Assembly: GCA_041667545.1 (NCBI GenBank)
Contig: JBAYES010000002.1
Location: 5,035-69,034, forward strand
DNA length: 64,000 nt
Source: Candidatus Omnitrophota bacterium
GTDB taxonomy: Bacteria > Omnitrophota > Gorgyraeia > Tantalellales > Tantalellaceae
Reading direction: 5' to 3'
Under the pieces are notes generated by a model. It did no database searches. It was not told the origin of the DNA and saw only the letters and a program-made list of their open reading frames with translations. Positions 1,535 to 61,422 of the stretch are shown one piece after another; the stretch's first letter is position 1, and each line of letters starts with the position of its first letter. Both the position numbers and the translations under genes were made by a program.

Positions 1535-2866
<1,332 letters not shown>

Positions 2867-2911
2867 AAAAATAAAAGGAATAACACCCCCATTTCCAGAC
2901 AGGAGGTTGAT

Positions 2912-3847
2912 ATGAGCAATATCTACAATGATATCACAAAAACAACGGGTAGAACTCCGCTTGTTAAGATAAATGCCATGGCGGAGGGGCTGGGAGCCAC
3001 TATTCTGGCGAAACTTGAATTTTTCAATCCTCTCTCGAGTGTTAAGGACCGGATCGGCGCCGCCATGATCGAATCGGCGGAAAAAGAAGGTAAGCTGGGT
3101 AAAGGTTCCGTGATAATCGAACCTACAAGCGGGAATACCGGGATAGCTCTGGCTTTTGTGGCCGCCGCTAAAGGGTACAGGCTTGTATTGACCATGCCGG
3201 ATACCATGAGCGTAGAGCGCCGTCAGCTTCTGGGCATATTAGGGGCTGAACTTGTTTTGACCGAAGGAGCGAAAGGGATGAAAGGAGCAGTGGAGAAGGC
3301 CGAGGAATTGACCGCGAATACAGCAAATAGCTACATGCCCCAACAGTTCAATAACCCGGCAAATCCCGAAGTACACAGGCGCACAACGGCGGAAGAGATA
3401 TGGCATGATACCTGTGGAAGCGTAGATATATTCATTGCCGGAATAGGTACGGGCGGAACGATAACAGGTGTGGGAGAGGTTTTAAAGGCGCGAAAGCCTT
3501 CTGTCCGGATTATAGGGCTTGAGCCGGAAGATTCACCGGTCCTTTCCGGCGGAAAACCGGGTTCGCATAAGATACAGGGCCTCGGCGCGGGGTTCATTCC
3601 CCGGGTACTGAATCGTGACATCATAGATGAGATAATAACTGTCAGCCATGAAGATGCCGGGGAGACCACAAGAAAACTCGCTAAAACTGATGGTATTTTA
3701 GGCGGGATTTCAAGCGGTGCTGCCGTATGGGCGGCTCTTGAGGTGGCAAAACGTTCCGACTCCAAAGGGAAAACTATTGTTACCGTGCTTCCGAGTTCCG
3801 GGGAGAGATATCTTTCAACGTGGCTTTTTCAGGGAATGAGCGCTTAA
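2912..3847 (+). CDS. cysK: cysteine synthase A (O-acetylserine sulfhydrylase)
   Basis: 311 aa; '[12 protein letters not shown]' and '[10 protein letters not shown]' PLP-fold type II motifs. Confidence 0.85.
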
Positions 3848-5758: not shown

Positions 5759-6409
5759 ATGTTTGAAAGAACAATAAATCGTATTTGCGGGTACAAAAAC
5801 GCGCTTTATAGGTTTAAAAAGCTTGGGTTTGTCAGGGTTTTTTCGGATAATCTGTCAGATGCCGTAGGGGTAACGCCTTCACAGGTGCGCAAAGATTTTT
5901 CCATGTTCGCCATTTCCGGGAATAAACGGGGCGGGTATAAGGTAGACGAGCTTTTGGAGAAAATATGTTTTATCCTGGGGAAAGACGATGTATGTAATGT
6001 GGTCGTGGTCGGCGCGGGGAATATAGGTCTTGCTCTTATGAAATACGGAGGTTTCGAAAAAGAGAACATGACCATAAAAGCGGCTTTTGACATAGATCCG
6101 GCAAAATTTTCCGAAAAAGAAAATATACCTGTTTTGCCGCTTTCAGAACTTGCCGTATATGTGAAAAAGGAAGATATTAAAGTGGGCATAATAGCCGTAC
6201 CCGATATTGCCGCTCAGCATGTGGCCGATCTTATGGTTGCGGCGGGGGTGAGGGGTATATTGAATTTCGCGCCGATACTTTTGAGATGCGGCGGCGAGAC
6301 GGTTGTTAAGAACGTTAATCTTGAGCTTGAGCTTGAGAACATAATATATTTTGTCAACGCGCGCGAAAAAAAAGGGACAGTCCTGGAACATGAAACCAAG
6401 CAGCCTTAA
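5759..6409 (+). CDS. rex: redox-sensing transcriptional repressor Rex
   Basis: 216 aa; N-terminal wHTH 'GVTPSQVRKDFSMF', Rossmann 'VVVVGAGNIGLAL' NADH-binding; typical Rex length. Confidence 0.8.
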   Translation: MFERTINRICGYKNALYRFKKLGFVRVFSDNLSDAVGVTPSQVRKDFSMFAISGNKRGGYKVDELLEKICFILGKDDVCNVVVVGAGNIGLALMKYGGFEKENMTIKAAFDIDPAKFSEKENIPVLPLSELAVYVKKEDIKVGIIAVPDIAAQHVADLMVAAGVRGILNFAPILLRCGGETVVKNVNLELELENIIYFVNAREKKGTVLEHETKQP

Positions 6410-8219
6410 GCGGTCGATGATATATAATTTTCTTATTGTTATACTCTTTATGAGTGTCTCCATAGGGGTTCTCGGGTTCAATGTTATACGTAAAGAGATA
6501 ATCGAAAAAGCCCAGCATCGTGTGGATAGTTATATGAAGTCTGCCCGCATACTTTACGAGACTATGATATCTTCCACCGGTAAAGAGCTGAGCCTTTTGA
6601 CCAAGCTCGATGATGTGGAAGAGATAAGGACGAGGGCGGATCTTGACTATCTTCACATTGTTGATAAACAGGATTTTGATAAGCTTAGAAGCGGGATAGC
6701 CCTAAGTTCATTGGATGGGAGCGAGGCGTCCGGAACAAGAATAATATCTTCCCGTGAACTCGAGAAAATGGGAAGGGGCCTGGATGAAAAGCTGAGAACA
6801 GAGGTAATTTCGACCCCGGGGGAGAAAGACTTTGAACCGTATTATCTGGAAGGTGTAATGGCCATGGAATACGCGAGGCCTGTTCTGGACGGAAACGGGA
6901 ACGTTGAAAAAGTGCTTTACGGCGGCAGGATAATAAACGGAAGAAGCGAAGTAGTGGACACGATGAGAGATATCATGTTCGGAGAAGAAGTATATTCAGG
7001 AAAACCTGTCGGCACGGTAACTATTTTTCAGGGAGATGTGCGAATAGCGACCAATGTCGTTAAGAGATCCGGCGACAGAGCCGTGGGAACAAAAGTTTCC
7101 CGGGAAGTTTATGAACATGTCATCGGCTCCGGCAAGAACTGGTCGGACAGGGCGCTTGTTGTTTCCGACTGGTATCTTACGGCATACGAGCCGATAAGGG
7201 ATATAGAGGGCGACATAATAGGAATGCTCTATGTGGGGATACTTGAACGGCCTTTCTTTGACATGGCAAAAAAAGTGTTTCTAATGTTCTTTGCCATAGT
7301 GACGGGTTCTGTTTTTCTGGCCTTGATCATATCGCTACTGCTCGCGGGGTCTTTTGTCAAGCCTGTTAATAGACTTGTTGAAGGAACGGCAAGGATCTCC
7401 AGGGGAGAGCTTGATCACAGGGTCAATGTGGATACGTCCATTGAGGACCTGAGATGGCTCGAAGTCTCGTTCAATGAAATGGCCGAGAGCCTTGAGTCCC
7501 GGAACAATGACCTTGTTCTGGCAAAGGAAAAAAGGGAGGCCCTGAACAAGAGGTATCTTGACCTGATAAGTTTTGTTTCCCATGAGCTTAAGGGCATATT
7601 AGCCTCGACAATACTCAATGCTTACTCGGTCAGGGATGGTTTTTTGGGGATGGTCAATTTTAAACAGCAGAAGGCGCTGGACTCTATAACACGTAACCTT
7701 GATCATCTCGACGCTACCGTAAAGAATTTTCTCAATCTGAGCCGTATTGAGAAAGGGGATATGGGCGTAATTAAAAAACAGGTTTTTCTAAGAGAAGAGG
7801 TTTTCGCGGTGGCTGTTGAGACTTTTTTGAAACAGATATCCGAAAAAGAAATGGAAATAAGGAACAATATACCTGCCGAACTTTCGGTGCCGGCCGACAG
7901 GGATCTTCTGCAGGTGGTAGCGAACAATCTTGTAAGTAATGCCGTTAAATACGGATCGCGCGGGGGAAAAATAGAGATAAATTTTGAAGACAGAGAAGAT
8001 AAATTTAAAATATCGGTGTATAATGACGGAAGGGTTTTGGGAGAAGGCGAGATCAAGAACCTATTTCACAGGTTTTCGCGGTTGGACGCTCCGGAAACAA
8101 AGAACGCTAAAGGCACTGGACTTGGCCTTTTCATTTCCAGGGAAATAGTGGAGAAACACGGCGGGACTATGTACGTGGAGCCGGGCAAGGACGGTAACTC
8201 GTTCGTATTTGAGATATAG
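6390..8219 (+). CDS. sensor histidine kinase (double-Cache periplasmic domain, HAMP, HisKA, HATPase_c)
   Basis: about 610 aa from ATG 6390 (signal/TM 'MIYNFLIVILFMSVSIGVLGF'); second TM then HAMP; H-box 'SHELKGILAS'; C-terminal G-box 'GTGLGLFISREIV'; stop codon TAG is supplied by the first 3 nt of the MITE TIR. Confidence 0.75.
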   Translation: MKPSSLKRSMIYNFLIVILFMSVSIGVLGFNVIRKEIIEKAQHRVDSYMKSARILYETMISSTGKELSLLTKLDDVEEIRTRADLDYLHIVDKQDFDKLRSGIALSSLDGSEASGTRIISSRELEKMGRGLDEKLRTEVISTPGEKDFEPYYLEGVMAMEYARPVLDGNGNVEKVLYGGRIINGRSEVVDTMRDIMFGEEVYSGKPVGTVTIFQGDVRIATNVVKRSGDRAVGTKVSREVYEHVIGSGKNWSDRALVVSDWYLTAYEPIRDIEGDIIGMLYVGILERPFFDMAKKVFLMFFAIVTGSVFLALIISLLLAGSFVKPVNRLVEGTARISRGELDHRVNVDTSIEDLRWLEVSFNEMAESLESRNNDLVLAKEKREALNKRYLDLISFVSHELKGILASTILNAYSVRDGFLGMVNFKQQKALDSITRNLDHLDATVKNFLNLSRIEKGDMGVIKKQVFLREEVFAVAVETFLKQISEKEMEIRNNIPAELSVPADRDLLQVVANNLVSNAVKYGSRGGKIEINFEDREDKFKISVYNDGRVLGEGEIKNLFHRFSRLDAPETKNAKGTGLGLFISREIVEKHGGTMYVEPGKDGNSFVFEI

Positions 8220-8396: not shown

Positions 8397-8753
8397 GTGC
8401 GCACACCTTTAGAGACCATACGAAAGAAAAGGGCGGAAGCCATCAGCAGAATAGTTGGGAAGGGATATCTGTCCACCAAAAGGGTTTATGTGGGAATGGC
8501 TACCTGTGAAATAGCCGCGGGATCGGATGAAGTGATGAAGGTGTTCCAGGACGCCATAAAAGGCGGGCTTTCAGGAGTGTATCTGAGCCAGAAGGGCTGT
8601 GCCGGAAGATGTAACCTTGAGCCTACCGTAGAAGTAGTGGAAACGGGAAAGATCCCGGTCAAGTATGGAAAGATCGATCCGGTACGGGCAAAAGAAATAA
8701 TAGAAAAGCATTTAAAAAGAGGCGAGGTCATAAAAGAGTGGGTCATAAAATAA
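8397..8753 (+). CDS. thioredoxin-like [2Fe-2S] ferredoxin-domain protein (NuoE/HydB-N-terminal-like fold, only 3 Cys)
   Basis: 118 aa, GTG start after AAAGGAGG; 'GMATCEIAAGS...GCAGRCNLEP' resembles the Trx-like 2Fe-2S domain but has only three cysteines. Confidence 0.45.
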   Translation: MRTPLETIRKKRAEAISRIVGKGYLSTKRVYVGMATCEIAAGSDEVMKVFQDAIKGGLSGVYLSQKGCAGRCNLEPTVEVVETGKIPVKYGKIDPVRAKEIIEKHLKRGEVIKEWVIK

Positions 8754-8765
8754 AAAGAGGATGAA

Positions 8766-10580
8766 ATGCCGGAAAAGACAAAAAAAGAATTCCAAAGAAA
8801 AACAATAACATTTTGTAACGGGACCTCATGCATGCAGAAAGGATCCATTGATCTAAAAAATTTACTGCGGCTTGAACTCGAAAAGAGGGGTTTAACTGAG
8901 GATGATGTGCGTATAAACATATCAGGGTGTCTTGGTATGTGCGACAAGGGCCCCCTGATGATAGTCAATCCCGGGTACACGATATACGCCAATCTTAAAG
9001 AAGAGGATATCCCGATAATATTTAAAGAGCATATAGAGGGAGACAGGCCTGTCGCCGAATTTGTTACAGACGCGGACCATCTTTATAACAGGTTTTTCAG
9101 AGTGTTCGGGGATGTGGGCTTTTTCGGAAAACAGATGCGTATAGCACTTAGGAACTGCGGGATAATAGATCCGGAAAGTATAGATGATTATCTTTCTCTC
9201 AGGGGGTATGAGGCCCTGGCCAAGGTCCTTACGGAAATGTCCCCGGACGAGGTAATATCGGCGGTTACTTCTTCGGGGCTGAGGGGGCGCGGAGGTGCCG
9301 GGTTCCCAACCGGACTTAAATGGAAATTTACCAGGGAGGCTGAAGGCATAGAAAAATATGTTATTTGTAATGCCGATGAAGGCGACCCCGGAGCGTTTAT
9401 GGATAGAAGCGCCATAGAGGGGGATCCGCACACCGTTATAGAGGGCATGATAATAGGAGCTTATGCGATTGGGTCAAGCAAAGGTCTAATTTACATAAGG
9501 GCGGAATATCCCCTGGCGATAAAACGGCTGGAGTCGGCCATAAAAGCGGCAAGAGAGAACGGCATGCTGGGAAAGAACATTCTGGGTTCCGATTTTTGCT
9601 TTGATATCGAGATAAAACTCGGAGCGGGGGCCTTTGTTTGCGGGGAAGAGACAGCCCTCATACATTCAATAGAAGGCTCAAGGGGGATGCCTCGGCCAAG
9701 GCCGCCCTTTCCGTCGGTGTCCGGTCTTTTCGGCTGTCCCACTCTGATAAACAACGTTGAGACCTGGGCGAATATACCCGTGATAATAGTGGACGGGCCC
9801 GAATGGTTCAGTTCGGTGGGAACAGAGAAAAGCAAGGGTACAAAGGTTTTCGCGGTCGCGGGAAAGGTGAACAATACAGGCCTTGTGGAAGTGCCCATGG
9901 GAACAACGCTAAGGGAGATAGTTTATGATATTTGCGGAGGTATCCCTGATGATAAAAAGTTCAAAGCGGTGCAGACCGGAGGACCATCCGGAGGATGTCT
10001 TCCCGAAAAATATCTTGATACAAAAATAGATTATGAGTCACTTGCGGCCGCCGGTTCCATAATGGGCTCGGGGGGAATGATAGTGATAGACGAGGATTCG
10101 TGCATGGTAGGGATATCGAAATTTTTTCTTGAGTTCACACAAAGCGAGTCATGCGGAAAATGTACTCCCTGCCGTGAGGGGACTAAAAGGATGCTTGAGA
10201 TACTTACCAGGATCACCGAAGGGAAGGGGGTAGAGGGAGATATACAAAAGCTCGAAAGATTGGGCAACATGATAAAGAAGGCGTCTCTTTGCGGGCTGGG
10301 TCAATCGGCCCCTAATCCTGTTCTTAGCACAATAAAGAATTTCAGGGAAGAATATGAAGAACATATACGTGACAAAAGGTGCAGAGCGGGAGAGTGTAAG
10401 GACCTTCTCGTGTACGAGATAACAGATAAATGTGTGGGATGTACGGCATGTAAAAAGGTCTGCCCGACGGCCGCGATAACGGGAGACGCAAAAAAAATGC
10501 ATGTAATAGACCCCGAGAAATGTGTGAAATGCGGAAAATGTTTTGAAATATGTAAATTCGGCGCCATAACGAGATCGTGA
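8766..10580 (+). CDS. hydB: [FeFe]-hydrogenase NuoF-like flavoprotein subunit (NADH-binding, FMN, Trx-like 2Fe-2S N-domain, 2x[4Fe-4S] C-domain)
   Basis: 604 aa; FMN/NADH motif 'GLRGRGGAGFPTGLKW'; N3 cluster 'ESCGKCTPCREG'; C-terminal 'CVGCTACKKVCP' and 'CVKCGKCFEICKF' ferredoxin motifs. Confidence 0.8.
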   Translation: MPEKTKKEFQRKTITFCNGTSCMQKGSIDLKNLLRLELEKRGLTEDDVRINISGCLGMCDKGPLMIVNPGYTIYANLKEEDIPIIFKEHIEGDRPVAEFVTDADHLYNRFFRVFGDVGFFGKQMRIALRNCGIIDPESIDDYLSLRGYEALAKVLTEMSPDEVISAVTSSGLRGRGGAGFPTGLKWKFTREAEGIEKYVICNADEGDPGAFMDRSAIEGDPHTVIEGMIIGAYAIGSSKGLIYIRAEYPLAIKRLESAIKAARENGMLGKNILGSDFCFDIEIKLGAGAFVCGEETALIHSIEGSRGMPRPRPPFPSVSGLFGCPTLINNVETWANIPVIIVDGPEWFSSVGTEKSKGTKVFAVAGKVNNTGLVEVPMGTTLREIVYDICGGIPDDKKFKAVQTGGPSGGCLPEKYLDTKIDYESLAAAGSIMGSGGMIVIDEDSCMVGISKFFLEFTQSESCGKCTPCREGTKRMLEILTRITEGKGVEGDIQKLERLGNMIKKASLCGLGQSAPNPVLSTIKNFREEYEEHIRDKRCRAGECKDLLVYEITDKCVGCTACKKVCPTAAITGDAKKMHVIDPEKCVKCGKCFEICKFGAITRS

Positions 10581-10588
10581 GGGGAAAA

Positions 10589-12364
10589 ATGAAAGATAAA
10601 ATAAAGATAAATGTTAACGGAAAAGATTATAAAGCCGGGCAAGGACAGACCATCATGCAGGCCCTGGATGATCTGGGGTTCAAGACGCCACGCCTTTGCT
10701 ATCATCCCAAACTTTCAATAGAAGGGGCGTGCAGGGTGTGTATAGTGGAAGTAGAAGGCATGAAAAACTATGTGGCGTCCTGTTCTTTTCCCGTGTCCGA
10801 GGGAATGAAAATAAGAACGAATACCAAAGAGTTGAGGCAGGCGAGAAGGGACATAGTGGAACTTATACTGGATAACCACCCGGAAGACTGCCACACCTGC
10901 GAAAGGGACGGCATTTGCGAGCTTCAGAGACTGGCTTACGCTATGGGCATAAGAAAAAGGCATTTTGAGGGAGAAAGAAAGCATTATGACGAAGATCTTT
11001 CGTCCCCGGCGGTAATAAGGAACCCCGATAAATGTATTCTTTGCGGGAGATGCGTGAGAATATGTTCTGAAATACAGAAGGTGAACGCGTTAAGGTACGC
11101 CCACAGGGGCTTCGGTACGGTGGTCATGCCGGCATACAACATGCCCTTTTCGGAAAGCGTCTGTACGGCCTGCGGGCAGTGCATAAATGTATGTCCGACG
11201 GCGGCATTTCTTGAAAGGAATTACACGCAGGAGCTTTTCGAAAAGCTTAATGATCCTTCGATAATAAAAGTAGCCCAGGTAGCGCCTTCGGTGAGAGCCG
11301 CCATAGGTGAGGCATTCGGATTTCCCCCCGGCACTTCGCATGAGGGAGAGATGGCCGCAGCTCTCCGGCGGCTTGGTTTCGATTATGTTTTCGATACTCA
11401 GTTCTCGGCAGACCTCACTATTATGGAAGAAGCCCACGAGTTCCTGGAAAGGCTTCAGGGTAAAGGGAAACTTCCCATGATAACTTCATGCTCGAGCGCA
11501 TGGATGAAATATATGGAGCAGTTCACTCCGGAACTTATAGACAACGTGTCTACATGCAAATCACCTATGGCCATGATGGGATCTATACTGAAAACCTATT
11601 TTGCCGAAAAAATGAAGATCGATCCGTCAAAAATTTTTACGGCCGCGGTAATGTGCTGTACGGCCAAAAAATATGAAGCTACGCGGCCTGAGATAATGGT
11701 CAACGGGATGAAGCCGGTGGATATTGTCGTAACTACGCGTGAAGCGGCCTGGATGATAAAGTCAGCGGGTATAGATTTTGTCGGGATAAAACCCGAAAAA
11801 TTCGATAATCCTCTGGGAAATTCATCGGGGGCGGGGGCTATTTTCGGTGTTACCGGAGGAGTTATGGAAGCGGCTATCAGAACCGCTTATGAGCTTTATA
11901 CGGGAGAAACGCTGCTTGATATAGAAATAAGCGATATAAGGGGGCTTAAAGGAATTAAAGAAGGGTCTTTGAAAATGGAAGGGAAAGAGATAAGGGTGGC
12001 GGTAGCGCACGGATTGGGTAATGCCTGCGAACTTCTGGAAGTAGTCAAAAAGGATCCGGAAAGATATCACTTCATCGAGATAATGGGCTGCCCCGGAGGA
12101 TGTATAGGAGGGGGCGGACAGCCGTATGCCGGGTCTAATTCCGTGCCGCTTGACGAGGAAGTGCTTAAGAAACGGGCCGAGGCGTTATACAGCCTTGACA
12201 GGTCAAGGACAATACGAAGAAGCCACGATAATCCGGATATCCAGAGGGTATATAAGGAGTTTTTGGGCAGGCCACTGAGCCCCGTGGCGCATAAGACGCT
12301 TCATACGCATTACGCGGCTAAAAAACCCAGAGGGATAGTGCCGAAAGAGTCTATAGCAAGGTAA
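10589..12364 (+). CDS. hydA: [FeFe]-hydrogenase catalytic subunit (M3-type: 2Fe-2S N-domain, His-ligated 4Fe-4S, 2x[4Fe-4S] F-clusters, H-cluster domain) with non-canonical L1/L2 motifs
   Basis: about 591 aa; L3 'EIMGCPGGCIGGGGQP' canonical; L1 'TSCSSAW' (canonical TSCCPxW) and L2 'VMCCTAKKYE' (canonical MPCxxKxxE); F-cluster motifs 'CILCGRCVRICSE', 'CTACGQCINVCP'; aligns throughout with C. pasteurianum CpI from memory. Confidence 0.85.
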   Translation: MKDKIKINVNGKDYKAGQGQTIMQALDDLGFKTPRLCYHPKLSIEGACRVCIVEVEGMKNYVASCSFPVSEGMKIRTNTKELRQARRDIVELILDNHPEDCHTCERDGICELQRLAYAMGIRKRHFEGERKHYDEDLSSPAVIRNPDKCILCGRCVRICSEIQKVNALRYAHRGFGTVVMPAYNMPFSESVCTACGQCINVCPTAAFLERNYTQELFEKLNDPSIIKVAQVAPSVRAAIGEAFGFPPGTSHEGEMAAALRRLGFDYVFDTQFSADLTIMEEAHEFLERLQGKGKLPMITSCSSAWMKYMEQFTPELIDNVSTCKSPMAMMGSILKTYFAEKMKIDPSKIFTAAVMCCTAKKYEATRPEIMVNGMKPVDIVVTTREAAWMIKSAGIDFVGIKPEKFDNPLGNSSGAGAIFGVTGGVMEAAIRTAYELYTGETLLDIEISDIRGLKGIKEGSLKMEGKEIRVAVAHGLGNACELLEVVKKDPERYHFIEIMGCPGGCIGGGGQPYAGSNSVPLDEEVLKKRAEALYSLDRSRTIRRSHDNPDIQRVYKEFLGRPLSPVAHKTLHTHYAAKKPRGIVPKESIAR

Positions 12365-12376
12365 AAGGAGATTAAC

Positions 12377-12877
12377 ATGCTTATAAAGGAAGATGAGGCG
12401 ATAGCCGAACTCAAAGATTACATAGAAAGCAAAAAGGGAAAAGAACACGAGGAAGCGTACCTTATTGATATACTGCACAAGGCGCAGGACCTTTACGGAT
12501 ATCTTAAAAAGGACATTATGGATTTCATCGCCGATGAGATGAATATTCCCACGGCGCACATATGGGGAGTGGCCACCTTTTACCATTACTTTAATCTGAA
12601 ACCCATAGGGAAATATGTGATATCGGTATGTATGGGGACAGCCTGTTATGTAAAGGGCGCGGGTGATGTTCTCGGCGCGATAAAAAAAGAACTTAACCTG
12701 AAAGTGGGGGATACTACCGAAGACGGATTATTTACACTTCAGGAGGCCAGATGCCTGGGAGCCTGCGGACTGGCTCCGGTGGTAATGGTAAACAATAAGA
12801 TACACGGCGGACTTACCGATAGAAAGGTTGTGGAGCTTATCTCGGATTACAGGAACAAAGAAAAGGGTGTGAAATAA
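12377..12877 (+). CDS. hydC: [FeFe]-hydrogenase NuoE-like [2Fe-2S] subunit
   Basis: 166 aa; 'CMGTACYVKGAGDV...CLGACGLAPVVMVN' thioredoxin-like 2Fe-2S motifs of NuoE/HndA. Confidence 0.75.
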   Translation: MLIKEDEAIAELKDYIESKKGKEHEEAYLIDILHKAQDLYGYLKKDIMDFIADEMNIPTAHIWGVATFYHYFNLKPIGKYVISVCMGTACYVKGAGDVLGAIKKELNLKVGDTTEDGLFTLQEARCLGACGLAPVVMVNNKIHGGLTDRKVVELISDYRNKEKGVK

Positions 12878-12883
12878 GATCTG

Positions 12884-14272
12884 ATGAAATATATAGATGA
12901 AAAGAATATCTTCAGGCTTTTGGATAAAGGAAAAGATCCTCCCGATGGGGCCGTAGATGAGGCAATAGATAAAAGTCTGGCGCTCAAAAGGCTTTCTCTT
13001 GAAGAGACCTCATATCTTCTTAACTCACGAAGCAAGCGGGATGTCAGACGGATACTTGAGGCGGCTTCTCTGGTAAAAAGCAGGATATACGGCAGTAGGG
13101 TCGTTATATTCGCCCCTCTCTATATAAACAATACCTGTGTAAATAATTGTTTGTACTGCGCGTTCAGAAAAGACAATATTCTCATAAACCGCCGCCGGCT
13201 CGACATGGAGGATATTGCTAAGGAAACGGTCTCTCTTCTTAAAAGCGGTCATAAAAGGGTGCTCGCGGTCTCATCAGAAAGCGGGAATGAAGGCCTTGCC
13301 GAAGCCCGGTATTACGTTGAGGCCATAAGAACGATGTACGGTCAGGAATATAAGAATAGCAGGATAAGGCGGATAAACATTAACTGCGCCCCTCTTCCGG
13401 AAGAAGGGTTTAAACTTTTAAAGTCTTCCGGCATAGGCACCTACCAGCTTTTTCAGGAAACATACCATGGTGATACATATAAAAAAGTCCATCCTTCGGG
13501 CCCGAAGAGCGACCCCGATAACCGGCTTGACGCTATTGACCGGGCTTTCCGGGCGGGGATAGACGATGTCGGGATAGGGGCCTTATTCGGGCTTTACGAT
13601 CACAAATTCGAGGTGCTGGCTCTTCTTTCTCATGTGGAACATCTGGAAAGGACTTTCGGAGTGGGGCCCCACACCATTTCCGTTCCGAGAATAGAACCGG
13701 CTTTGGGAACAGATATAAATGAAACATCTCCGTACAAAGTTTCGGACGACGATTTTAAAAAATTGGTGGCTGTTCTGCGGCTGGCCGTGCCGTATACGGG
13801 CATAATATTGTCTACACGTGAAACTCCGGAAATGAGGGACGAGCTTTTTCGTCTGGGTATTTCTCAGGTGAGCGCGGCTTCACGTACTTCTCCCGGAGGG
13901 TACTCCGGAGAAAAGGCCGGATCTGAAGGGGCCCAGTTCTTCCTGAGCGATCATCGCAGTCTTGATGAGGTTATAGCAAGCCTGATCGAAAGGGGCGCCA
14001 TACCCAGTTTCTGCACCGCCTGCTACAGGAAGGAGAGAACGGGAGAAACTTTTATGGGTCTTGCAAGACCCGGAACGATAAAGGGAAAATGCGCTCTCAA
14101 TGCCCTTATTACGCTTAAAGAATATCTCAAGGATTTTGCTTCAGAAGAAGTTAAGGAGAAGGGAAACGCTCTTATAGAAAGACTTAAAGAAGAACTCAGC
14201 GATCAGGAGAAAAAACAGCTTGATGAATTTTTTATTCATATAGAGCGAGGGGTCAGAGACGAGCATGTATAA
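12884..14272 (+). CDS. hydG: [FeFe]-hydrogenase H-cluster maturase HydG (radical SAM tyrosine lyase)
   Basis: 462 aa; radical-SAM 'CVNNCLYCAF'; C-terminal CX2CX22C motif 'CTACYRKERTGETFMGLARPGTIKGKC' diagnostic for HydG versus ThiH. Confidence 0.85.
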   Translation: MKYIDEKNIFRLLDKGKDPPDGAVDEAIDKSLALKRLSLEETSYLLNSRSKRDVRRILEAASLVKSRIYGSRVVIFAPLYINNTCVNNCLYCAFRKDNILINRRRLDMEDIAKETVSLLKSGHKRVLAVSSESGNEGLAEARYYVEAIRTMYGQEYKNSRIRRININCAPLPEEGFKLLKSSGIGTYQLFQETYHGDTYKKVHPSGPKSDPDNRLDAIDRAFRAGIDDVGIGALFGLYDHKFEVLALLSHVEHLERTFGVGPHTISVPRIEPALGTDINETSPYKVSDDDFKKLVAVLRLAVPYTGIILSTRETPEMRDELFRLGISQVSAASRTSPGGYSGEKAGSEGAQFFLSDHRSLDEVIASLIERGAIPSFCTACYRKERTGETFMGLARPGTIKGKCALNALITLKEYLKDFASEEVKEKGNALIERLKEELSDQEKKQLDEFFIHIERGVRDEHV

Positions 14273-14556: not shown

Positions 14557-14596
14557 ACATAACCATCGGAATTCTAAAGTTTAAAGGAGGAAGTTG

Positions 14597-14986
14597 ATGC
14601 CTGGAAAAATATTGATAGTTGATGACGATCCCGATTTCCGAGAAGCCATGGCTACCCTGCTTGAAGCGAAAGGATATGATGTTGGAACGGCTTCGGACGG
14701 TGAAGCGGGCCTTGCCAAAGCAAGGGAAATATTGCCCGATATTATTTTGCTGGATGTTATGATGTCGGGTACGACCGAGGGGTTTGATGTGGCCAGAAAA
14801 CTTCATGCCGAAGACAAACTTAAGGACATTCCGGTCGTTATGACGACCGGAATAAGAAAAGATATGAACCTTCCTTTCGGGTTTGAGCCCGACAACGACA
14901 CTTTGCCCGTAAAAGAGGTGCTTGAAAAACCGGTTAAGCCCGAAACCCTTCTCTCAGCGGTAGCAAAACACATAAGAACGGGATGA
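14597..14986 (+). CDS. stand-alone response-regulator receiver (CheY-like REC) protein
   Basis: about 129 aa; 'KILIVDDDPDFREAMATLLEAKGYDV...ILLDVMM' with phospho-acceptor Asp context; no output domain; stop overlaps next start (ATGA). Confidence 0.7.
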   Translation: MPGKILIVDDDPDFREAMATLLEAKGYDVGTASDGEAGLAKAREILPDIILLDVMMSGTTEGFDVARKLHAEDKLKDIPVVMTTGIRKDMNLPFGFEPDNDTLPVKEVLEKPVKPETLLSAVAKHIRTG

Positions 14987-43109: not shown

Positions 43110-43300
43110 CGTTCAAGGTCGGAAATGAACAAAGACGTTCATCCTCGCTGTAATACTATGGGAGGGGAACGCCTTTTTTTTTATCTGGATTGATAGATAT
43201 TAAGGCATTTTTTGGCCGCTGTTTAATCAGCTGAGAATGGCATAGATGATAATAATGAGATCAGTGGACTTAAGGACATAACAAAAAAGTGAGATGCGAA

Positions 43301-44143
43301 ATGCACAGGATAGTATTAAAAAAACAATTAAACTCCGAGATATCACTCGTGGAATTTGAGGCCCGGGACCTTGCTCTGGCCGCTGAGCCGGGTCAATTCG
43401 TTATATTGAGGGTCGACGAGAAGGGCGAACGTTTCCCCCTTACGATATATGACTTTGACCGGGCGAAGGGAACGATAACGGTGGTATGCCAGGCAGTCGG
43501 CGTAAGTACAAAAAAATTATGCGCTTTGAAAGAGGGAGAAGCCATACTTGATGCGGCTGGTCCGCTGGGACATGCTTCAAATGTAAAGGATATCGGCAAG
43601 GTCATCTGTATAGGAGGAGGAGTAGGGACAGCAGAGGCGTATCCTATAGCCCGCGCCATGAAGCGATCAGGCAATGATGTCACGGTAATAATAGGCGCCA
43701 GAAATGAGGAACTTGTTATCTGCGAAAAAGAGATCAGAGAGTTTTGCGATAAGGTCCATGTCACTACCGATGACGGGTCTTACGGCAGGAAAGGTTTTGT
43801 TACCGATGTGCTTAAAGAACTGATAGAGAAGGAAAAGTATGACCTGGTATTTGCCATAGGCCCGGTTCCCATGATGAAAAAGGTAGCGGAGGTAACCCGC
43901 GAGAAAGACATAAAAACCATGGTTTCACTGAACTCTATAATGATAGACGGAACCGGCATGTGCGGCGGATGCAGGCTTAAGTACGGGGGAAAATCAAGCT
44001 TTGCGTGTGTGGACGGTCCGGAATTTGACGCGAGTTTAGTGGATTTTGACGATCTTATGAAAAGAGGGGTCCGCTACAAGGACAAAGAAAAAAAAGCGAT
44101 GGATCATTACGGCGAAAGATGCCGTATCGGCCTTGACAATTAA
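43301..44143 (+). CDS. nfnA: NfnA / sulfide dehydrogenase beta-like subunit (FAD/NAD ferredoxin-NADP reductase fold with 2Fe-2S)
   Basis: about 280 aa from ATG 43301 (ORF track begins at GTG 43289); 'PGQFVILR' FAD-binding, C-terminal 'GTGMCGGCRL' 2Fe-2S motif characteristic of PyrK/NfnA family. Confidence 0.7.
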   Translation: MHRIVLKKQLNSEISLVEFEARDLALAAEPGQFVILRVDEKGERFPLTIYDFDRAKGTITVVCQAVGVSTKKLCALKEGEAILDAAGPLGHASNVKDIGKVICIGGGVGTAEAYPIARAMKRSGNDVTVIIGARNEELVICEKEIREFCDKVHVTTDDGSYGRKGFVTDVLKELIEKEKYDLVFAIGPVPMMKKVAEVTREKDIKTMVSLNSIMIDGTGMCGGCRLKYGGKSSFACVDGPEFDASLVDFDDLMKRGVRYKDKEKKAMDHYGERCRIGLDN

Positions 44144-45573
44144 TGTTTACGGAGAAAATGAAAATGACTGAAAAGGTAAAAATGAGAGAACGACCGGCTG
44201 GAAAAAGGACAAAAGATTTCGGCGAAGTGCCGTATGGCTATAGCGAAGAAGAAGCCGTGGCAGAAGCTTCAAGATGCCTGGGGTGTAAGACAGCTCCCTG
44301 CGTAAGCGGTTGTCCGGCCGAGGTAGACATTCCCGCGTTTATAAGGCTTATAAAGGAAAGAAAGTTTGATGAAGCGATAGCGGTCATAAAAAAGACCAAC
44401 ACTCTTCCTGCGGTCTGCGGAAGGGTATGTCCCCAGGAAGACCAATGCGAAAAGAAATGTGTTCTTGCGAAAACCGGGAACCCCATAGATATAGGGTCTC
44501 TTGAAAGATTTGCAGCCGATCATGAAGCCCGAGAGACCGGGGTTTCATCCGAGGGGGCAGCGGCAAATTCCAAAACCAAGGGAGTAAAAGTGGCTGTTAT
44601 CGGATCAGGACCGGCCGGACTTACGGCGGCGGCTGATCTGGCGGGAATGGGATACAGCGTTACGGTATTCGAGGGTCTGCACGCGCCCGGGGGAGTCCTT
44701 ACGTACGGTATTCCCGAATTCAGGCTTCCAAAAGAAATAGTAATGCGTGAGGTGGACGACATAAAGGCTCTCGGAGTGGATATAAAGTATAATTACGTCA
44801 TAGGTAAGATCAAGACCATAGAAGGCCTTAGAAAAGAGGGCTTTAAGGCATTTTTTATCTGTACCGGCGCGGGCCTTCCGAATTTTATGGGTATTGAAGG
44901 CGAGAATCTCTCGGGCGTCTATTCGGCCAATGAGTTTTTGACCCGGGTTAATCTCATGAAAGCGTATGATTTTCCAAGATATGATACTCCCGTAAATGTA
45001 GGATCCAAGGTGGCGGTCATAGGCGCCGGTAATGTGGCTTTGGATTCGGCCAGATGCGCTCTTCGTCTCGGAGCGGAAAAGGTTTATATAGTATACCGCA
45101 GGACCGAACAGGAAATGCCCGCGAGGCTGGATGAAATACATCATGCAAAGGAAGAAGGGATAGAGTTCCATCTTCTTACGACGCCCGTGGAAATAAAAGG
45201 CGACGAAAAAGGGGATATAACCGGCATGATCTGCATTAAAAATTCTCTGGGAGAGCCTGACGATAGCGGAAGAAGAAGGCCTGTTCCCATTAAATCTTCG
45301 GAATTCGAGATGGATGTCGACACCGTAATAGTAGCTATCGGCAACGGGCCGAACCCTCTTCTTCTTAAGACCGTCGAAGGGTTGGAGTTGAACAAATGGG
45401 GAAACATTAAGGCCGATGAGGAAGGCAGAACATCGGTTAAAGATATTTTCGCCGGGGGCGACATAGTGACGGGAGCCGCAACCGTAATAGCGGCCATGGG
45501 AGCGGGTAAAAAAGCGGCCCGTGTCATAGACAAGTATCTTTCAGCGGAAGATGCAAAAAACAAGACAGTTTAA
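44143..45573 (+). CDS. nfnB: NfnB / GltD-like NADPH oxidoreductase subunit (2x[4Fe-4S], FAD, NADPH)
   Basis: 476 aa (start ambiguous among four in-frame ATGs 44143-44182); 'CLGCKTAPCVSGCPAEVDIP', 'VAVIGSGPAGLTAA', 'VAVIGAGNVALD'. Confidence 0.75.
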   Translation: MFTEKMKMTEKVKMRERPAGKRTKDFGEVPYGYSEEEAVAEASRCLGCKTAPCVSGCPAEVDIPAFIRLIKERKFDEAIAVIKKTNTLPAVCGRVCPQEDQCEKKCVLAKTGNPIDIGSLERFAADHEARETGVSSEGAAANSKTKGVKVAVIGSGPAGLTAAADLAGMGYSVTVFEGLHAPGGVLTYGIPEFRLPKEIVMREVDDIKALGVDIKYNYVIGKIKTIEGLRKEGFKAFFICTGAGLPNFMGIEGENLSGVYSANEFLTRVNLMKAYDFPRYDTPVNVGSKVAVIGAGNVALDSARCALRLGAEKVYIVYRRTEQEMPARLDEIHHAKEEGIEFHLLTTPVEIKGDEKGDITGMICIKNSLGEPDDSGRRRPVPIKSSEFEMDVDTVIVAIGNGPNPLLLKTVEGLELNKWGNIKADEEGRTSVKDIFAGGDIVTGAATVIAAMGAGKKAARVIDKYLSAEDAKNKTV

Positions 45574-52103: not shown

Positions 52104-52177
52104 GCTTTTTGTGTGGATAAAGTCTTTATTTTTGGAAGTCATTAAGCTATTTGTTGTTGGAGAGGAATAGATCAAAG

Positions 52178-53239
52178 ATGGATATTGAGCGTATTTTTGA
52201 CAAAATAGACAAAGATTCCGGGCTTACGGCCGGCGAGGTGGAGTTTCTGCTTACGGCCGACGGAGATGAAGTTGAAGCGCTTTACGGTAAAGCCGACAGT
52301 GTGCGGCGGGATAACATGGGAGATGATGTATATCTCAGAGGAATAGTGGAGTTCTCTAATTTCTGCGTTAAAAATTGTTTCTATTGCGGGATATATTCCT
52401 CTAATAAGAAGGTTAAGAGATATCGCATTCCGGATGAAGAGATACTGGATGTCTGCCGTGAGATGGAAAAAAGAGGCCAGACCACGGTTGTTCTGCAGTC
52501 GGGAGAAGACCCCTTCTACACGAAAGAAAAAATGGGAAAACTGATACGGACTATAAAAAGTGAAACAACTCTTGCCGTTACGCTGTCCGTGGGAGAAAGG
52601 GACAGAGAAACGTACGGTTACTGGAAAGATAGCGGTATGGATAGATACCTTTTACGGTTCGAGACATCGGACGAGACATTGTTCAAGGCCTGTCACCCCG
52701 ATGCCGATCTTGCCGGGAGGTTAACATGTCTCAAAGATCTCAAAGAACTTGGAGTTCAGACAGGTTCGGGTTTTCTTATAGGCCTGCCTGATGCGACCAT
52801 CGCGCAGCTTGCCCGCGATATCCTTTTTTGCACGGAACTTGAGCTCGACATGATCGGCGTCGGGCCATTCATCCCTCATGGGGATACAAGATTTAATTCT
52901 CTTCACAACACTTTCGGTAAAGATATATTTTTCAAGACGGTCGCGATACTGCGGCTTTTGAATAAAACGGCTCATATTCCGGCGACAACGGCTTTTGACG
53001 CAGTGGATCCCGAAGGAAGGAACCTTCTTCTTTTAAGGGGATGTAATGTTTTTATGCCGAACTCAACACCGGTAAAATACAGGGAACATTACCTGCTTTA
53101 TCCGGGTAAACCTTGTGTCGACGAGAGCGCCGAAGACTGTTCCGCCTGTGTTCTTGGAAGGATATCCGCGCTCGGTAGAAAGATAGGCAAAGGCCCGGGC
53201 CATTCGATCCGCGCCGGTCACAGTTCGTCTCTCGAATAG
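52178..53239 (+). CDS. hydE: [FeFe]-hydrogenase H-cluster maturase HydE (radical SAM)
   Basis: about 353 aa; near-collinear match to T. maritima HydE from memory: 'IVEFSNFCVKNCFYCG', 'YRIP', 'VLQSGEDP', 'AVTLSVGE', 'YLLRFET', 'DMIGVGPFIPH', 'IPATTAF', 'YPGKPCV', 'LGRK'. Confidence 0.8.
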   Translation: MDIERIFDKIDKDSGLTAGEVEFLLTADGDEVEALYGKADSVRRDNMGDDVYLRGIVEFSNFCVKNCFYCGIYSSNKKVKRYRIPDEEILDVCREMEKRGQTTVVLQSGEDPFYTKEKMGKLIRTIKSETTLAVTLSVGERDRETYGYWKDSGMDRYLLRFETSDETLFKACHPDADLAGRLTCLKDLKELGVQTGSGFLIGLPDATIAQLARDILFCTELELDMIGVGPFIPHGDTRFNSLHNTFGKDIFFKTVAILRLLNKTAHIPATTAFDAVDPEGRNLLLLRGCNVFMPNSTPVKYREHYLLYPGKPCVDESAEDCSACVLGRISALGRKIGKGPGHSIRAGHSSSLE

Positions 53240-60501: not shown

Positions 60502-61422
60502 GTGGACAAGCTTTATGATCTCATAATAGTGGGCGCGGGGCCGGCGGGGATAACGGCAAGTGTTTATGCCGCCAGAAAGAGAATGGCCTTGAAGGTGCTT
60601 ACAGAGGACATAGGCGGCCAGACTGTGTGGAGCGGGGACATAGAGAATTATACCGGATACCAGTTCATAAGCGGTGTGGATCTCGCTGGGAAGTTCGAAG
60701 AACATATTAAACAGTATTCCATAGAAGTGGGAGAGGAAGAGCCGGTAGTAGCCATAAAGAAGAAAGGTACGAAGATACATACTTTTACGGACAAGGGTGA
60801 GTATGTCTCGAAAACATTGATAGTAGCTTCCGGGAAAAGGTCTAAGGAGCTGAATGTACCGGGAGAAAAAGAGTTCAGACAGAGGGGCCTTGCGTATTGC
60901 GCCACATGCGACGGCCCTCTTTTTTCAGATAAAGATGTAGCTGTTATAGGAGGCGGTAATTCGGCTCTTGAGTCGGCAATACAGCTCTCGCGCATAGCTA
61001 AGACCGTGCACATAATAAATATAGCTCCCAAGCTTACAGGGGATGCCATAATGGTAGAAAAACTGGAAAAAGACCCTAAAGTGTCTATAATGAACGAAAG
61101 CAGGGTAACGGCCGTAAAAGGCGACAAGTTCGTGTCCGGCATCGATATAGAGAGTTCCGGAGAAAGTCAGGTTTTACGGGTTCAAGGGGTTTTTGTGGAA
61201 ATCGGCCTTTCCCCTAACACGAAGTTTGAAAGCGAGATCGAGCTGAATGATCTGGGAGAAATAAAGGTAAATAACCGCAACGAGACCAATATTCCCGGGG
61301 TGTTCGCGTCGGGCGATGTTACCGACGTTCCGGAGAAACAGATAATAATTGCCGCCGGGGAAGGGGCAAAAGCCGCTTTAAGCGCGTTTAACTACATATC
61401 GAGGGCCGTAGAATGGTCCTGA
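60502..61422 (+). CDS. trxB: thioredoxin-disulfide reductase-like FAD/NAD(P)H oxidoreductase
   Basis: 306 aa; 'YDLIIVGAGPAGITASVYAARK', redox 'CATCDG', second Rossmann 'VAVIGGGNSALE'. Confidence 0.75.
   Translation: MDKLYDLIIVGAGPAGITASVYAARKRMALKVLTEDIGGQTVWSGDIENYTGYQFISGVDLAGKFEEHIKQYSIEVGEEEPVVAIKKKGTKIHTFTDKGEYVSKTLIVASGKRSKELNVPGEKEFRQRGLAYCATCDGPLFSDKDVAVIGGGNSALESAIQLSRIAKTVHIINIAPKLTGDAIMVEKLEKDPKVSIMNESRVTAVKGDKFVSGIDIESSGESQVLRVQGVFVEIGLSPNTKFESEIELNDLGEIKVNNRNETNIPGVFASGDVTDVPEKQIIIAAGEGAKAALSAFNYISRAVEWS

What the first reader, a model, noticed from the sequence alone, without database searches (positions are those of the whole stretch)
10589..12364. HydA carries non-canonical H-cluster motifs: L1 TSCSSAW and L2 MCCTAKK, with a canonical L3
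Alignment to CpI (from memory) is collinear. The [4Fe-4S]H-ligating Cys of TSCCPxW (CpI C300) is Ser here, and the proton-transfer Cys (C299) is kept. The Pro of MPC is replaced by an extra Cys (MCC). A further Cys appears in 'NVSTCKSP', where CpI has 'NLSSAKSP' with Ala at that position. L3 (EIMGCPGGCIGGGGQP) is intact. The subunit context (NuoF-like HydB, NuoE-like HydC, N-terminal 2Fe-2S plus F-clusters) is that of trimeric, putatively electron-bifurcating enzymes, which normally carry canonical motifs. Ser-for-Cys in L1 together with an extra Cys in L2 is, as far as I recall, associated with the poorly characterised Group B [FeFe] hydrogenases. This could be a catalytically unusual enzyme, for example with rewired cluster ligation or proton transfer.
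Basis: partly seen in the sequence, partly recalled or inferred. Interest (0 to 1): 0.62.

Follow-up and report, generated by a model that had tools for sequence, protein, structure and literature searches.

The report
Serine-type bifurcating hydrogenase, extra-cysteine variant
This is the catalytic subunit of an ordinary three-subunit, electron-bifurcating [FeFe] hydrogenase: its cysteine-to-serine change at the iron-sulfur cluster is a known natural variant already seen in the solved Acetobacterium woodii enzyme, and only the coupled extra cysteine next to another cluster ligand (MCC) appears undescribed.

Summary
HydA (10589-12364, +) reads TSCSSAW (L1), NVSTCKSP, MCCTAKK (L2) and a canonical L3. 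It is collinear with CpI, T. kivui and A. woodii HydA.

- It is not Group B. Group B is defined by TSCCCP, and the protein fails NCBIfam's B1 model (155 bits, cutoff 450). It passes group A (497 vs 406) and "A6" (828 vs 765).
- Ser for the L1 cluster cysteine is known. It occurs in about 16-20% of [FeFe] hydrogenases and in the cryo-EM structure of the bifurcating A. woodii HydABC, which has normal FTIR signatures and activity.
- Cys321 is not special. About half of canonical enzymes have it.

What is left is a sub-variant on the Ser background: Pro301/Gly302 become Ser(Ala)/Ala and Pro354 becomes Cys. It is invariant in 120/120 closest proteins and defines a well-supported clade (Omnitrophota, Planctomycetota and others). 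The three positions switched together at least twice.

The proton pathway, HydB, HydC, HydG and HydE are all intact. Modest interest.

The parts
10589..12364 (+). HydA, catalytic subunit of an M3-type [FeFe] hydrogenase: N-terminal [2Fe-2S] domain, F-clusters and H-domain
   Evidence: The ORF is intact. Best PDB hits are 8a6t_A (E 2e-180) and 7q4v_A (E 5e-162). NCBIfam scores: NF040763 827.8 bits (cutoff 765) and TIGR02512 497.2 (cutoff 405.95). Foldseek top hits for the AF2 model are 8a6t_A and 7q4w_A.
11483..11503 (+). L1 motif TSCSSAW. Window C301 is the proton-transfer Cys (CpI C299). Window S302 replaces the cubane ligand CpI C300. Window S303/A304 replace CpI P301/G302.
   Evidence: T299, S300, C301, S302, A304 and W305 are invariant, and S303 is at least 90% conserved, among the query plus 60 homologs.
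11543..11566 (+). NVSTCKSP segment. Window S321 is the proton-pathway Ser (CpI S319). Window C323 corresponds to CpI A321. The next residue, M327, corresponds to CpI Q325.
   Evidence: Cys at this position is also present in 52% of canonical enzymes. It is Ala or Thr in some MCC-clade members.
11651..11671 (+). L2 motif MCCTAKK. Window C356 replaces CpI P354. Window C357 is the cubane ligand (CpI C355). Window M355 and K360 correspond to CpI M353 and K358.
   Evidence: C356 and C357 are invariant in the query plus 60 homologs. Cys354 occurs only together with Ser300 and a non-Pro residue at 301.
12077..12124 (+). L3 motif EIMGCPGGCIGGGGQP, canonical. Window C501 and C505 correspond to CpI C499 and the bridging C503.
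8766..10580 (+). HydB, a NuoF-like flavoprotein with an N-terminal [2Fe-2S] domain and a C-terminal 2x[4Fe-4S] domain. It carries the GGPSG motif at 9978-9992.
   Evidence: It aligns full-length with A. woodii HydB 7q4v_B at E 3.6e-249. GGPSG is the marker of bifurcating beta subunits in PMC7311640, located.
12377..12877 (+). HydC, a NuoE-like [2Fe-2S] subunit
   Evidence: NCBIfam NuoE/HoxE family hits, E 1e-40 to 7e-53. It lies next to HydA in the relatives.
8397..8753 (+). 118-aa ORF with weak thioredoxin-like ferredoxin similarity and only three Cys, conserved immediately upstream of HydB
   Evidence: Only a weak NCBIfam 2Fe-2S ferredoxin hit (E 2.4e-6) and no Pfam hit. Homologs sit upstream of HydB in most MCC and MPC loci.
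12884..14272 (+). HydG, radical-SAM H-cluster maturase
   Evidence: TIGR03955 488.3 bits, cutoff 312.15.
52151..53239 (+). HydE, radical-SAM H-cluster maturase, about 38 kb downstream of HydG
   Evidence: TIGR03956 333.7 bits, cutoff 254.6.
5759..6409 (+). Rex redox-sensing repressor, conserved upstream of the operon
   Evidence: NF003996 221 bits, cutoff 138. Synteny.
6351..8219 (+). Sensor histidine kinase, conserved between Rex and the hydrogenase genes in the MCC clade
   Evidence: Histidine kinase family hits. Synteny.
14594..14986 (+). Single-domain response regulator, conserved downstream of the operon
   Evidence: ORF. Homologs lie downstream of HydC or HydG/HydE in most MCC loci.

Best explanation
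The gene encodes the H2-activating subunit of a HydABC-type (Bfu family), NAD(H)- and ferredoxin-linked, electron-bifurcating/confurcating [FeFe] hydrogenase of Group A. It belongs to the same Ser-in-L1 lineage as A. woodii HydA1.

Shown here:
- The catalytic machinery is complete. The proton-transfer Cys and the Glu/Ser/Glu/Arg pathway are present, as are the residues matching CpI Met353, Lys358, Met497 and Phe417, three of the four canonical cubane cysteines including the bridging one, HydB, HydC, and the maturases HydG and HydE.
- The fourth cubane ligand position is Ser.

Inferred:
- As modelled in A. woodii, this Ser most likely still provides the fourth (oxygen) ligand to [4Fe-4S]H.
- The clade-specific, coupled replacement of the two prolines that flank the L1 and L2 ligands (P301 to S/A with G302 to A, and P354 to C) most likely retunes the second sphere of the serine-ligated cubane. 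It adds backbone N-H groups and a thiol next to the cluster, which could stabilise it or adjust its potential.
- The enzyme is expected to be an active, bidirectional hydrogenase under Rex and two-component redox control.
For: - **Identity and architecture.** The HydB GGPSG bifurcation marker is present.
- **Ser is tolerated in nature.** A. woodii Ser301 is described as the ligand of cluster A1, with typical FTIR signatures and activity. Ser occurs in about 20% of sequences according to the literature and in 16% of 152 diverse representatives here.
- **Ser can suffice without an extra Cys.** Five of the 25 Ser300 representatives have neither Cys321 nor Cys354.
- **Position 300 stays constrained.** It is only ever Cys or Ser in the 154-sequence set. 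It remains invariantly Ser across the MCC clade, down to 53% identity. This argues that Ser keeps a role even when Cys354 is present.
- **The three positions are coupled.** Cys354 occurs only with Ser300 and a non-Pro residue at 301. L032 and L035, nested inside the MCC clade (100/100 bootstraps with motif columns removed), have SPGW and MPC together. Only 8 positions co-switch in them, and the flanking sequence remains MCC-clade-like, so block recombination is excluded.
- **The system looks functional.** Maturases are present and the operon is conserved.
Against: - No coordinates were available, so the geometry of Ser302, Cys356 and Cys323 (window numbering) relative to the cubane site was not measured.
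- AF2 confidence dips to about 67 in the block that contains most of L1.
- Engineered Cys-to-Ser at this position in CrHydA1 (C115S) lost the cluster and all activity. Ser ligation therefore needs a permissive context, and an invariant extra Cys next door is a natural candidate for a real ligand.
- The A. woodii Ser ligation was assigned from a cryo-EM map. I did not check its resolution, and it has not been confirmed spectroscopically.
- NCBI's family name ("NADH-dependent") suggests a non-bifurcating function, although the HydB features argue otherwise.
Confidence: 0.55

Rival explanations
1. Tandem-cysteine ligation. In the MCC clade the new Cys354 (window C356) has taken over as the fourth thiolate ligand of [4Fe-4S]H, so that adjacent Cys354 and Cys355 both bind the cubane. 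Ser300 is then only a hydrogen-bonding neighbour.
For: - Cys354 is invariant in every MCC-clade protein examined, and it appears only where Cys300 is missing.
- Pro (CCN) to Cys (TGY) needs two nucleotide changes, yet it is fixed throughout the clade.
- It co-switches with the two residues that follow the lost ligand.
- Engineered C115S in CrHydA1 cannot hold the cluster, so a compensating thiolate would be useful.
- From my own knowledge: adjacent cysteines do ligate one [4Fe-4S] cluster in complex I cluster N2.
Against: - Ser300 stays strictly conserved in the clade. If it were released from ligation, drift to Ala, Gly or Thr would be expected.
- Many Ser300 enzymes, including the active A. 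woodii enzyme, have Pro354 and need no such ligand.
- The geometry was not tested.
Confidence: 0.27
2. Cys321 (window C323, in NVSTCKSP) is the replacement ligand for the lost Cys300.
For: Cys321 is enriched among Ser300 proteins: 20/25 against 66/127 in canonical ones (odds ratio 3.7, Fisher p = 0.014, with no correction for phylogeny).
Against: - Half of the canonical, all-Cys enzymes also have Cys321.
- Five of the 25 Ser300 representatives lack it.
- MCC-clade members exist with Ala321 (L031, L036 and six of the 120 proteins) or Thr321 (P0122).
Confidence: 0.05
3. One reading: a Group B-like or otherwise catalytically aberrant, sensory or non-functional hydrogenase.
For: It has non-canonical L1 and L2 strings.
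Against: - The Group B signature is TSCCCP, and the protein scores far below the B1 model cutoff.
- It nests with T. kivui and A. woodii HydA in the tree.
- The proton pathway and second-sphere residues are intact.
- It has no PAS or other sensory domain, and it sits in an operon with HydB, HydC and HydG.
Confidence: 0.03
4. A non-bifurcating, NADH-only hydrogenase, as NCBI's family name "NADH-dependent [FeFe] hydrogenase, group A6" implies.
For: HydA exceeds the NF040763 cutoff.
Against: - HydB carries GGPSG, the N-terminal [2Fe-2S] domain and the C-terminal 2x[4Fe-4S] domain. It aligns end to end with the bifurcating A. woodii HydB.
- The A. woodii and T. kivui HydA proteins are the closest solved relatives.
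Confidence: 0.1

Closest known systems
Acetobacterium woodii HydA1 of the electron-bifurcating HydABC(D) complex (PDB 7Q4V/7Q4W; Katsyv et al. 2023, PMC10021017)
   Same: - M3 domain architecture with HydB and HydC partners. HydB is the best PDB hit, at E 3.6e-249.
- Ser replaces the L1 cubane cysteine (TSCS...), and there is a Cys at CpI position 321.
- The proton pathway and L3 are intact.
   Different: - A. woodii keeps Pro301/Gly302 (TSCSPGW) and Pro354 (MPC). The window protein has Ser/Ala (TSCSSAW) and Cys354 (MCC), plus Met instead of Gln at CpI position 325.
- H-domain identity is about 48%.
- Gene order differs. The window has Fdx-like, HydB, HydA, HydC. The Bacillota MPC-type relatives have HydC, Fdx-like, HydB, HydA.
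Thermoanaerobacter kivui HydA1 (PDB 8A6T), canonical bifurcating HydABC
   Same: It is the best sequence and fold match (E 2e-180; Foldseek rank 1), with the same architecture and partners.
   Different: T. kivui has the fully canonical TSCCPSW / MPC motifs and Ala321.
Group B [FeFe] hydrogenases (for example C. pasteurianum CpIII)
   Same: An additional cysteine lies close to an H-cluster ligand.
   Different: - The extra Cys of Group B is in L1 (TSCCCP), and all four canonical ligands are kept.
- Group B enzymes are M2-type and, according to NCBIfam's B1 model name, monomeric.
- The window protein fails the B1 model (154.7 bits against a cutoff of 450).
Engineered CrHydA1 C115S, the L1 ligand Cys changed to Ser (Kertess et al. 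2017, PMC5855289)
   Same: The same residue change at the same ligand position.
   Different: The engineered variant loses most of the [4Fe-4S] cluster and is inactive. The natural Ser lineage is widespread, and in A. woodii it is active, which implies a permissive context.

Membership tests
Group A [FeFe] hydrogenase | Score above the curated cutoff of NCBIfam TIGR02512 (FeFe_hydrog_A) | tested here: met
   497.2 bits against a cutoff of 405.95.
NCBIfam NF040763, "NADH-dependent [FeFe] hydrogenase, group A6" | Score above the curated cutoff (765 bits) over the full-length model | tested here: met
   827.8 bits, model positions 1-571 of 571. Several close homologs carry this name in NCBI.
Canonical H-cluster motif set (Vignais L1/L2/L3) | L1 TSCCPxW | tested here: not met
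   The sequence is TSCSSAW, so the second Cys and the Pro are both replaced.
Canonical H-cluster motif set (Vignais L1/L2/L3) | L2 MPCxxKxxE | tested here: not met
   The sequence is MCCTAKKYE, with Pro replaced by Cys.
Canonical H-cluster motif set (Vignais L1/L2/L3) | L3 ExMxCxxGCxxGGGQP | tested here: met
   The sequence is EIMGCPGGCIGGGGQP.
Catalytically competent Group A enzyme | Proton-transfer pathway residues (CpI C299, E279, S319, E282, R286) and second-sphere residues (M353, K358, F417, M497) | tested here: met
   Window residues C301, E281, S321, E284, R288, M355, K360, F419 and M499 occupy the aligned positions.
Catalytically competent Group A enzyme | H2 evolution or uptake activity, and the FTIR signature of the H-cluster | not testable with these tools
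   This needs expression and spectroscopy.
Ser-in-L1 lineage (A. woodii HydA1 type) | Ser at the L1 cubane-ligand position, with the proton-transfer Cys retained | tested here: met
   The sequence reads TSC-S. All 78 genomic relatives share this state.
Ser-in-L1 lineage (A. woodii HydA1 type) | Pro301/Gly302 and Pro354 flanking the ligands (TSCSPGW / MPC) | tested here: not met
   The window has Ser, Ala and Cys at these positions.
Group B [FeFe] hydrogenase | Three adjacent cysteines in L1 (TSCCCP) | tested here: not met
   The criterion comes from PMC12138974. The window has TSCSS.
Group B [FeFe] hydrogenase | Score above the cutoff of NCBIfam TIGR04105 (FeFe_hydrog_B1) | tested here: not met
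   154.7 bits against a cutoff of 450.
Electron-bifurcating HydABC (Bfu family) | Adjacent NuoF-like HydB with FMN/NAD(H) module, N-terminal [2Fe-2S] domain and C-terminal 2x[4Fe-4S] domain | tested here: met
   Domain hits, and a full-length alignment to A. woodii HydB at E 3.6e-249.
Electron-bifurcating HydABC (Bfu family) | GGPSG motif in the HydB SLBB region, absent from NADH-only enzymes (Losey et al. 2020) | tested here: met
   The motif lies at HydB residues 405-409, nt 9978-9992.
Electron-bifurcating HydABC (Bfu family) | Adjacent NuoE-like HydC | tested here: met
   12377-12877, NuoE/HoxE family hits.
Electron-bifurcating HydABC (Bfu family) | Coupled NAD(P)+ and ferredoxin reduction by H2 | not testable with these tools
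   This needs a biochemical assay.
Ligation of [4Fe-4S]H in this variant | Which four side chains surround the cubane site (window Ser302 O-gamma, Cys356, Cys323, Cys357, Cys501, Cys505) | not testable with these tools
   An AF2 model was built, but its coordinates cannot be read.

The most novel reading that the evidence does not exclude
In this clade the H-cluster cubane is bound by two adjacent cysteines of L2 (Cys354 and Cys355) instead of one Cys from L1 and one from L2. That would be a relocated, tandem-cysteine ligation of [4Fe-4S]H, reminiscent of cluster N2 of complex I. Ser300 would be retained as a hydrogen-bond partner. The arrangement might allow redox- or proton-linked ligand exchange that tunes the bias of a bifurcating hydrogenase.
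Probability: 0.27. Interest if true: 0.6.

Novelty: new variant of a known kind. Interest (0 to 1): 0.36.

Why it matters
- **A natural experiment on cluster ligation.** The H-cluster is usually described as having an all-cysteine-ligated cubane. Nature repeatedly swaps one ligand for Ser, while the same swap engineered into CrHydA1 destroys the cluster. The MCC/SSAW clade shows which residues co-evolve with the non-Cys ligand: positions 301, 302 and 354 change together. That gives a short, specific list of mutations to test for stabilising or tuning a serine-ligated, or relocated-cysteine, [4Fe-4S]H.

- **A practical point for surveys.** Surveys that keep only sequences with canonical L1/L2/L3 strings would discard this whole clade. 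One such filter is described for HytA in PMC6085437. The clade appears to be the main bifurcating-type hydrogenase lineage in Omnitrophota and anaerobic Planctomycetota, so H2 metabolism in those groups would be under-counted.

- **No new enzyme class.** The finding does not point to a new kind of enzyme.

Tried and rejected
- **Frame or assembly error: rejected.** The ORF is intact, and the motifs are identical in 120/120 close homologs and about 38 independent genomes.
- **Group B membership: rejected**.
- **Cys321 as a specific compensator: rejected as a general rule**.
- **Block recombination as the cause of the joint L1/L2 switch in L032 and L035: rejected.** The sequence between and around the motifs stays MCC-clade-like (0.72-0.83 identity to the MCC-clade consensus, against 0.45-0.61 to the MPC-type consensus).
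- **Literature search for the motif strings: only noise.** TSCSP, TSCSS, MCCxxK and similar returned nothing useful. A search for G302S found no paper in the library. I therefore found no description of the MCC variant, but the library is incomplete. For example, Winkler 2013, Calusinska 2010 and the paper behind the CpI G302S structure 7QHF were not retrieved or read.
- **AF2 model: no geometry.** I built a model hoping to measure Cys/Ser distances, but coordinates are not exposed. The Foldseek result only confirms the fold.
- **Correction to an earlier extraction.** I first listed L029 as an MPC exception. L029 in fact holds two HydA paralogs, and its close (75%) match is MCC-type.
- **Tree quality.** The trees are neighbour-joining on BLOSUM distances with 100 bootstraps. 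No maximum-likelihood analysis was possible.
Full report
**1. Observation**

The region 10589-12364 (+) translates without interruption into a 591-aa protein; the ORF list offers an alternative GTG start at 10577.
- TSCSSAW at 11483-11503
- NVSTCKSP at 11543-11566
- MCCTAKK at 11651-11671
- EIMGCPGGCIGGGGQP at 12077-12124

A phmmer search of PDB sequences aligns the protein collinearly with three enzymes:

| Enzyme | L1 | Position 319-324 segment | L2 |
|---|---|---|---|
| T. kivui HydA1 (8a6t_A, E 2e-180) | FTSCCPSW | NISTARSP | VMPCIGKK |
| A. woodii HydA1 (7q4v_A, E 5e-162) | ITSCSPGW | LSSCKSP | IMPCTAKK |
| CpI | FTSCCPGW | NLSSAKSP | VMPCTSKK |

In CpI numbering (window residue number minus 2) the protein keeps C299 and carries C300S, P301S, G302A, A321C, Q325M and P354C. 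It keeps C355, C499 and C503.

The residues matching the CpI proton pathway (E279, S319, E282, R286) and the second sphere (M353, K358, F417, M497) are all in place.

**2. Not an artefact**

- The 120 best database hits (76-90% identity; Omnitrophota, Planctomycetota, Spirochaetales, Margulisiibacteriota) all read TSCS[S/A]AW and xCC with an intact L3.
- A scan of GTDB species genomes returned 80 loci. About 38 of them, at 72% identity or more, carry the same signature.

**3. What the literature says**

- **Group B.** Group B (CpIII) is defined by an extra cysteine in L1 (TSCCCP), not by Ser-for-Cys or MCC (PMC12138974).
[quoted passage not shown] The enzyme is an active, bifurcating hydrogenase (PMC10021017).
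- **CrHydA1 mutagenesis.** Kertess et al. mutated the equivalent CrHydA1 residue. This is C115 in their numbering, and its neighbour C114 is the proton-transfer Cys. C115S, C115D and C115A lose most of the [4Fe-4S] cluster and all activity. [quoted passage not shown]

The Cys-to-Ser change in L1 is therefore a known, common natural variant.

**4. Family placement**

- NCBIfam places the protein above the curated cutoffs of the group A model (497.2 vs 405.95) and of NF040763, "NADH-dependent [FeFe] hydrogenase, group A6" (827.8 vs 765). It falls far below the B1 model (154.7 vs 450).
- HydB (8766-10580) aligns end to end with A. woodii HydB (E 3.6e-249). It has the N-terminal [2Fe-2S] domain and the C-terminal 2x[4Fe-4S] domain. 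It also has the GGPSG motif that Losey et al. found only in bifurcating beta subunits.
- HydC (12377-12877) and HydG (12884-14272) follow HydA. HydE lies at 52151-53239.
- In the MCC clade the gene order is Rex, histidine kinase, small Fdx-like ORF, HydB, HydA, HydC, then HydG/HydE in some loci, then a response regulator. This order is conserved.
- An AF2 model (H-domain pLDDT about 80-96) matches 8a6t_A and 7q4w_A best.

**5. How the variant positions behave across the family**

I tabulated the key positions in 150 representatives of 50%-identity clusters, plus the query and three reference sequences.

- **Position 300.** It is Cys in 127 and Ser in 25 (16%), and nothing else.
- **Position 321.** Cys321 occurs in 66/127 canonical and 20/25 Ser300 proteins (odds ratio 3.7, p = 0.014, not corrected for phylogeny). 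Five Ser300 proteins have neither Cys321 nor Cys354. Cys321 is therefore not a dedicated replacement ligand, and Ser300 can stand alone.
- **Position 354.** Cys354 occurs only with Ser300 and a non-proline residue at 301.
- **Genomic relatives.** All 78 have Ser300. The Bacillota proteins at about 50% identity are TSCSPGW/MPC, like A. woodii. The window's clade is TSCS[S/A]AW/MCC.
- **Ser300 codons.** TCN is used in 74 genes and AGY in 8, in two separate groups. These codon families are two steps apart, but each is one step from Cys (TGY). Together with the interleaving of Cys300 and Ser300 tips in the tree, this suggests that the Cys-Ser exchange has happened repeatedly.

**6. The coupled switch**

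- In a neighbour-joining tree the MCC proteins form one clade. Its deepest members are L039 (Marinamargulisbacteria, 57% identity to the query) and P0122 (a HydA-HydC fusion with Thr321).
- L032 and L035 sit inside this clade but read TSCSPGW/MPC. With all motif columns removed, they group with the main MCC clade to the exclusion of L039 and P0122 in 100 of 100 bootstraps.
- Only eight positions differ between L032/L035 and the MCC consensus at 90% or greater conservation. Four of them are CpI positions 232, 301, 302 and 354; the other four are window residues 306, 307, 311 and 362.
- The sequence between and around the motifs stays MCC-like, so a recombined block is excluded.
- Positions 301, 302 and 354 have therefore changed together at least twice, which indicates functional coupling around the cubane.

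**7. Mechanism**

Shown:
- A complete catalytic and maturation apparatus.
- Three canonical cubane cysteines plus Ser at the fourth position.
- A bifurcating-type HydB and HydC.

Inferred, best reading (about 0.55):
- Ser remains the fourth ligand, as assigned in A. woodii.
- Ser stays invariant across the whole MCC clade, which would not be expected if it had been made redundant.
- The loss of the two flanking prolines and the gain of Cys354 then act as a second-sphere retuning. New backbone N-H groups and a thiol are placed next to an oxygen-ligated cubane.

Main rival (about 0.27):
- Cys354 itself ligates, giving tandem Cys354/Cys355 coordination.
- Its invariance, its restriction to the Ser300 background and the instability of engineered C115S all fit this reading.

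**8. Verdict**

The finding is real, but its most striking element, Ser for the cluster cysteine in a bifurcating enzyme, is already published and structurally documented. The Group B link is wrong.

The remaining novelty is the MCC/SSAW sub-variant and its coupled evolution. I found no description of it in the searchable library. It is a new variant of a known kind, of modest interest. It is useful mainly as a guide for mutagenesis and as a caution for motif-based hydrogenase surveys.

Noticed in passing
L029:~2013-3800 and L029:6001-7761: The Candidatus Raymondbacteria locus carries two HydA paralogs flanking one Fdx-like/HydB pair. The upstream copy is TSCSPGW/MPC (47% identity to the query). 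The downstream copy is TSCSSAW/MCC (75%). Both variants therefore coexist in one operon.
   Followed up: partly
P0122 (773 aa): This is a natural HydA-HydC fusion protein. It has TSCSAAW, Thr at CpI position 321, and MCC. It is one of the deepest members of the MCC clade.
   Followed up: partly
window:8397-8753 (+): A 118-aa ORF with only three cysteines has no Pfam hit and only a weak match to thioredoxin-like 2Fe-2S ferredoxin (E 2.4e-6). It is nevertheless conserved directly upstream of HydB in most MCC and MPC loci. It may correspond to the small extra subunit of Hnd- or HydABCD-type complexes, but I did not test that.
   Followed up: partly
window:5759-8219 and 14594-14986 (+): Rex, a sensor histidine kinase and a single-domain response regulator bracket the hydrogenase genes. 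This arrangement is conserved in the MCC clade but not in the Bacillota relatives. The listed ORFs for Rex (ends 6409) and the kinase (TTG start at 6351) overlap by 59 nt.
   Followed up: partly
window:52151-53239 (+) versus 12884-14272 (+): HydE lies about 38 kb from HydG in this window, whereas many relatives have HydG and HydE adjacent, downstream of HydC. No HydF was seen among the ORFs I scanned.
   Followed up: partly
P0121 (4122 aa): This 4122-aa predicted protein has seven separate matches to the H-domain (2062 bits in total). It is either a giant multi-hydrogenase fusion or a gene-calling or assembly artefact.
   Followed up: no
P0039: One MCC-clade protein reads ICC instead of MCC. 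The Met that contacts the bridging CO in CpI (M353) is replaced by Ile.
   Followed up: no
L041-L043, L054, L048, L052, L061, L073: The Ser that replaces the L1 cluster cysteine is encoded by AGY in these Bacillota genes and by TCN everywhere else. This suggests independent Cys-to-Ser events.
   Followed up: partly
window:17441-46928 (+): This stretch is a long block of nitrogen-assimilation and nucleotide-synthesis genes. Pfam confirms an amidotransferase, CTP synthase, large and small glutamate synthase subunits, and glutamate dehydrogenase. By eye from the translations it also contains a 699-aa glutamine synthetase-like ORF, two AmtB-like ORFs with a PII-like ORF, and CarA/CarB. An NfnAB-like or sulfide-dehydrogenase-like pair lies at 43289-45573.
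   Followed up: no
window:57312-58472 (+): A flavodiiron (flavorubredoxin-like) protein sits here, consistent with an O2/NO-detoxifying strict anaerobe. A thioredoxin-reductase-like gene lies at 60502-61422.
   Followed up: no
PDB entries 7qhf, 8cjy: Crystal structures exist of CpI variants G302S and S357T. These residues flank the L1 and L2 cubane ligands, and position 302 is one of the co-switching positions here. The associated paper was not in the searchable library.
   Followed up: partly
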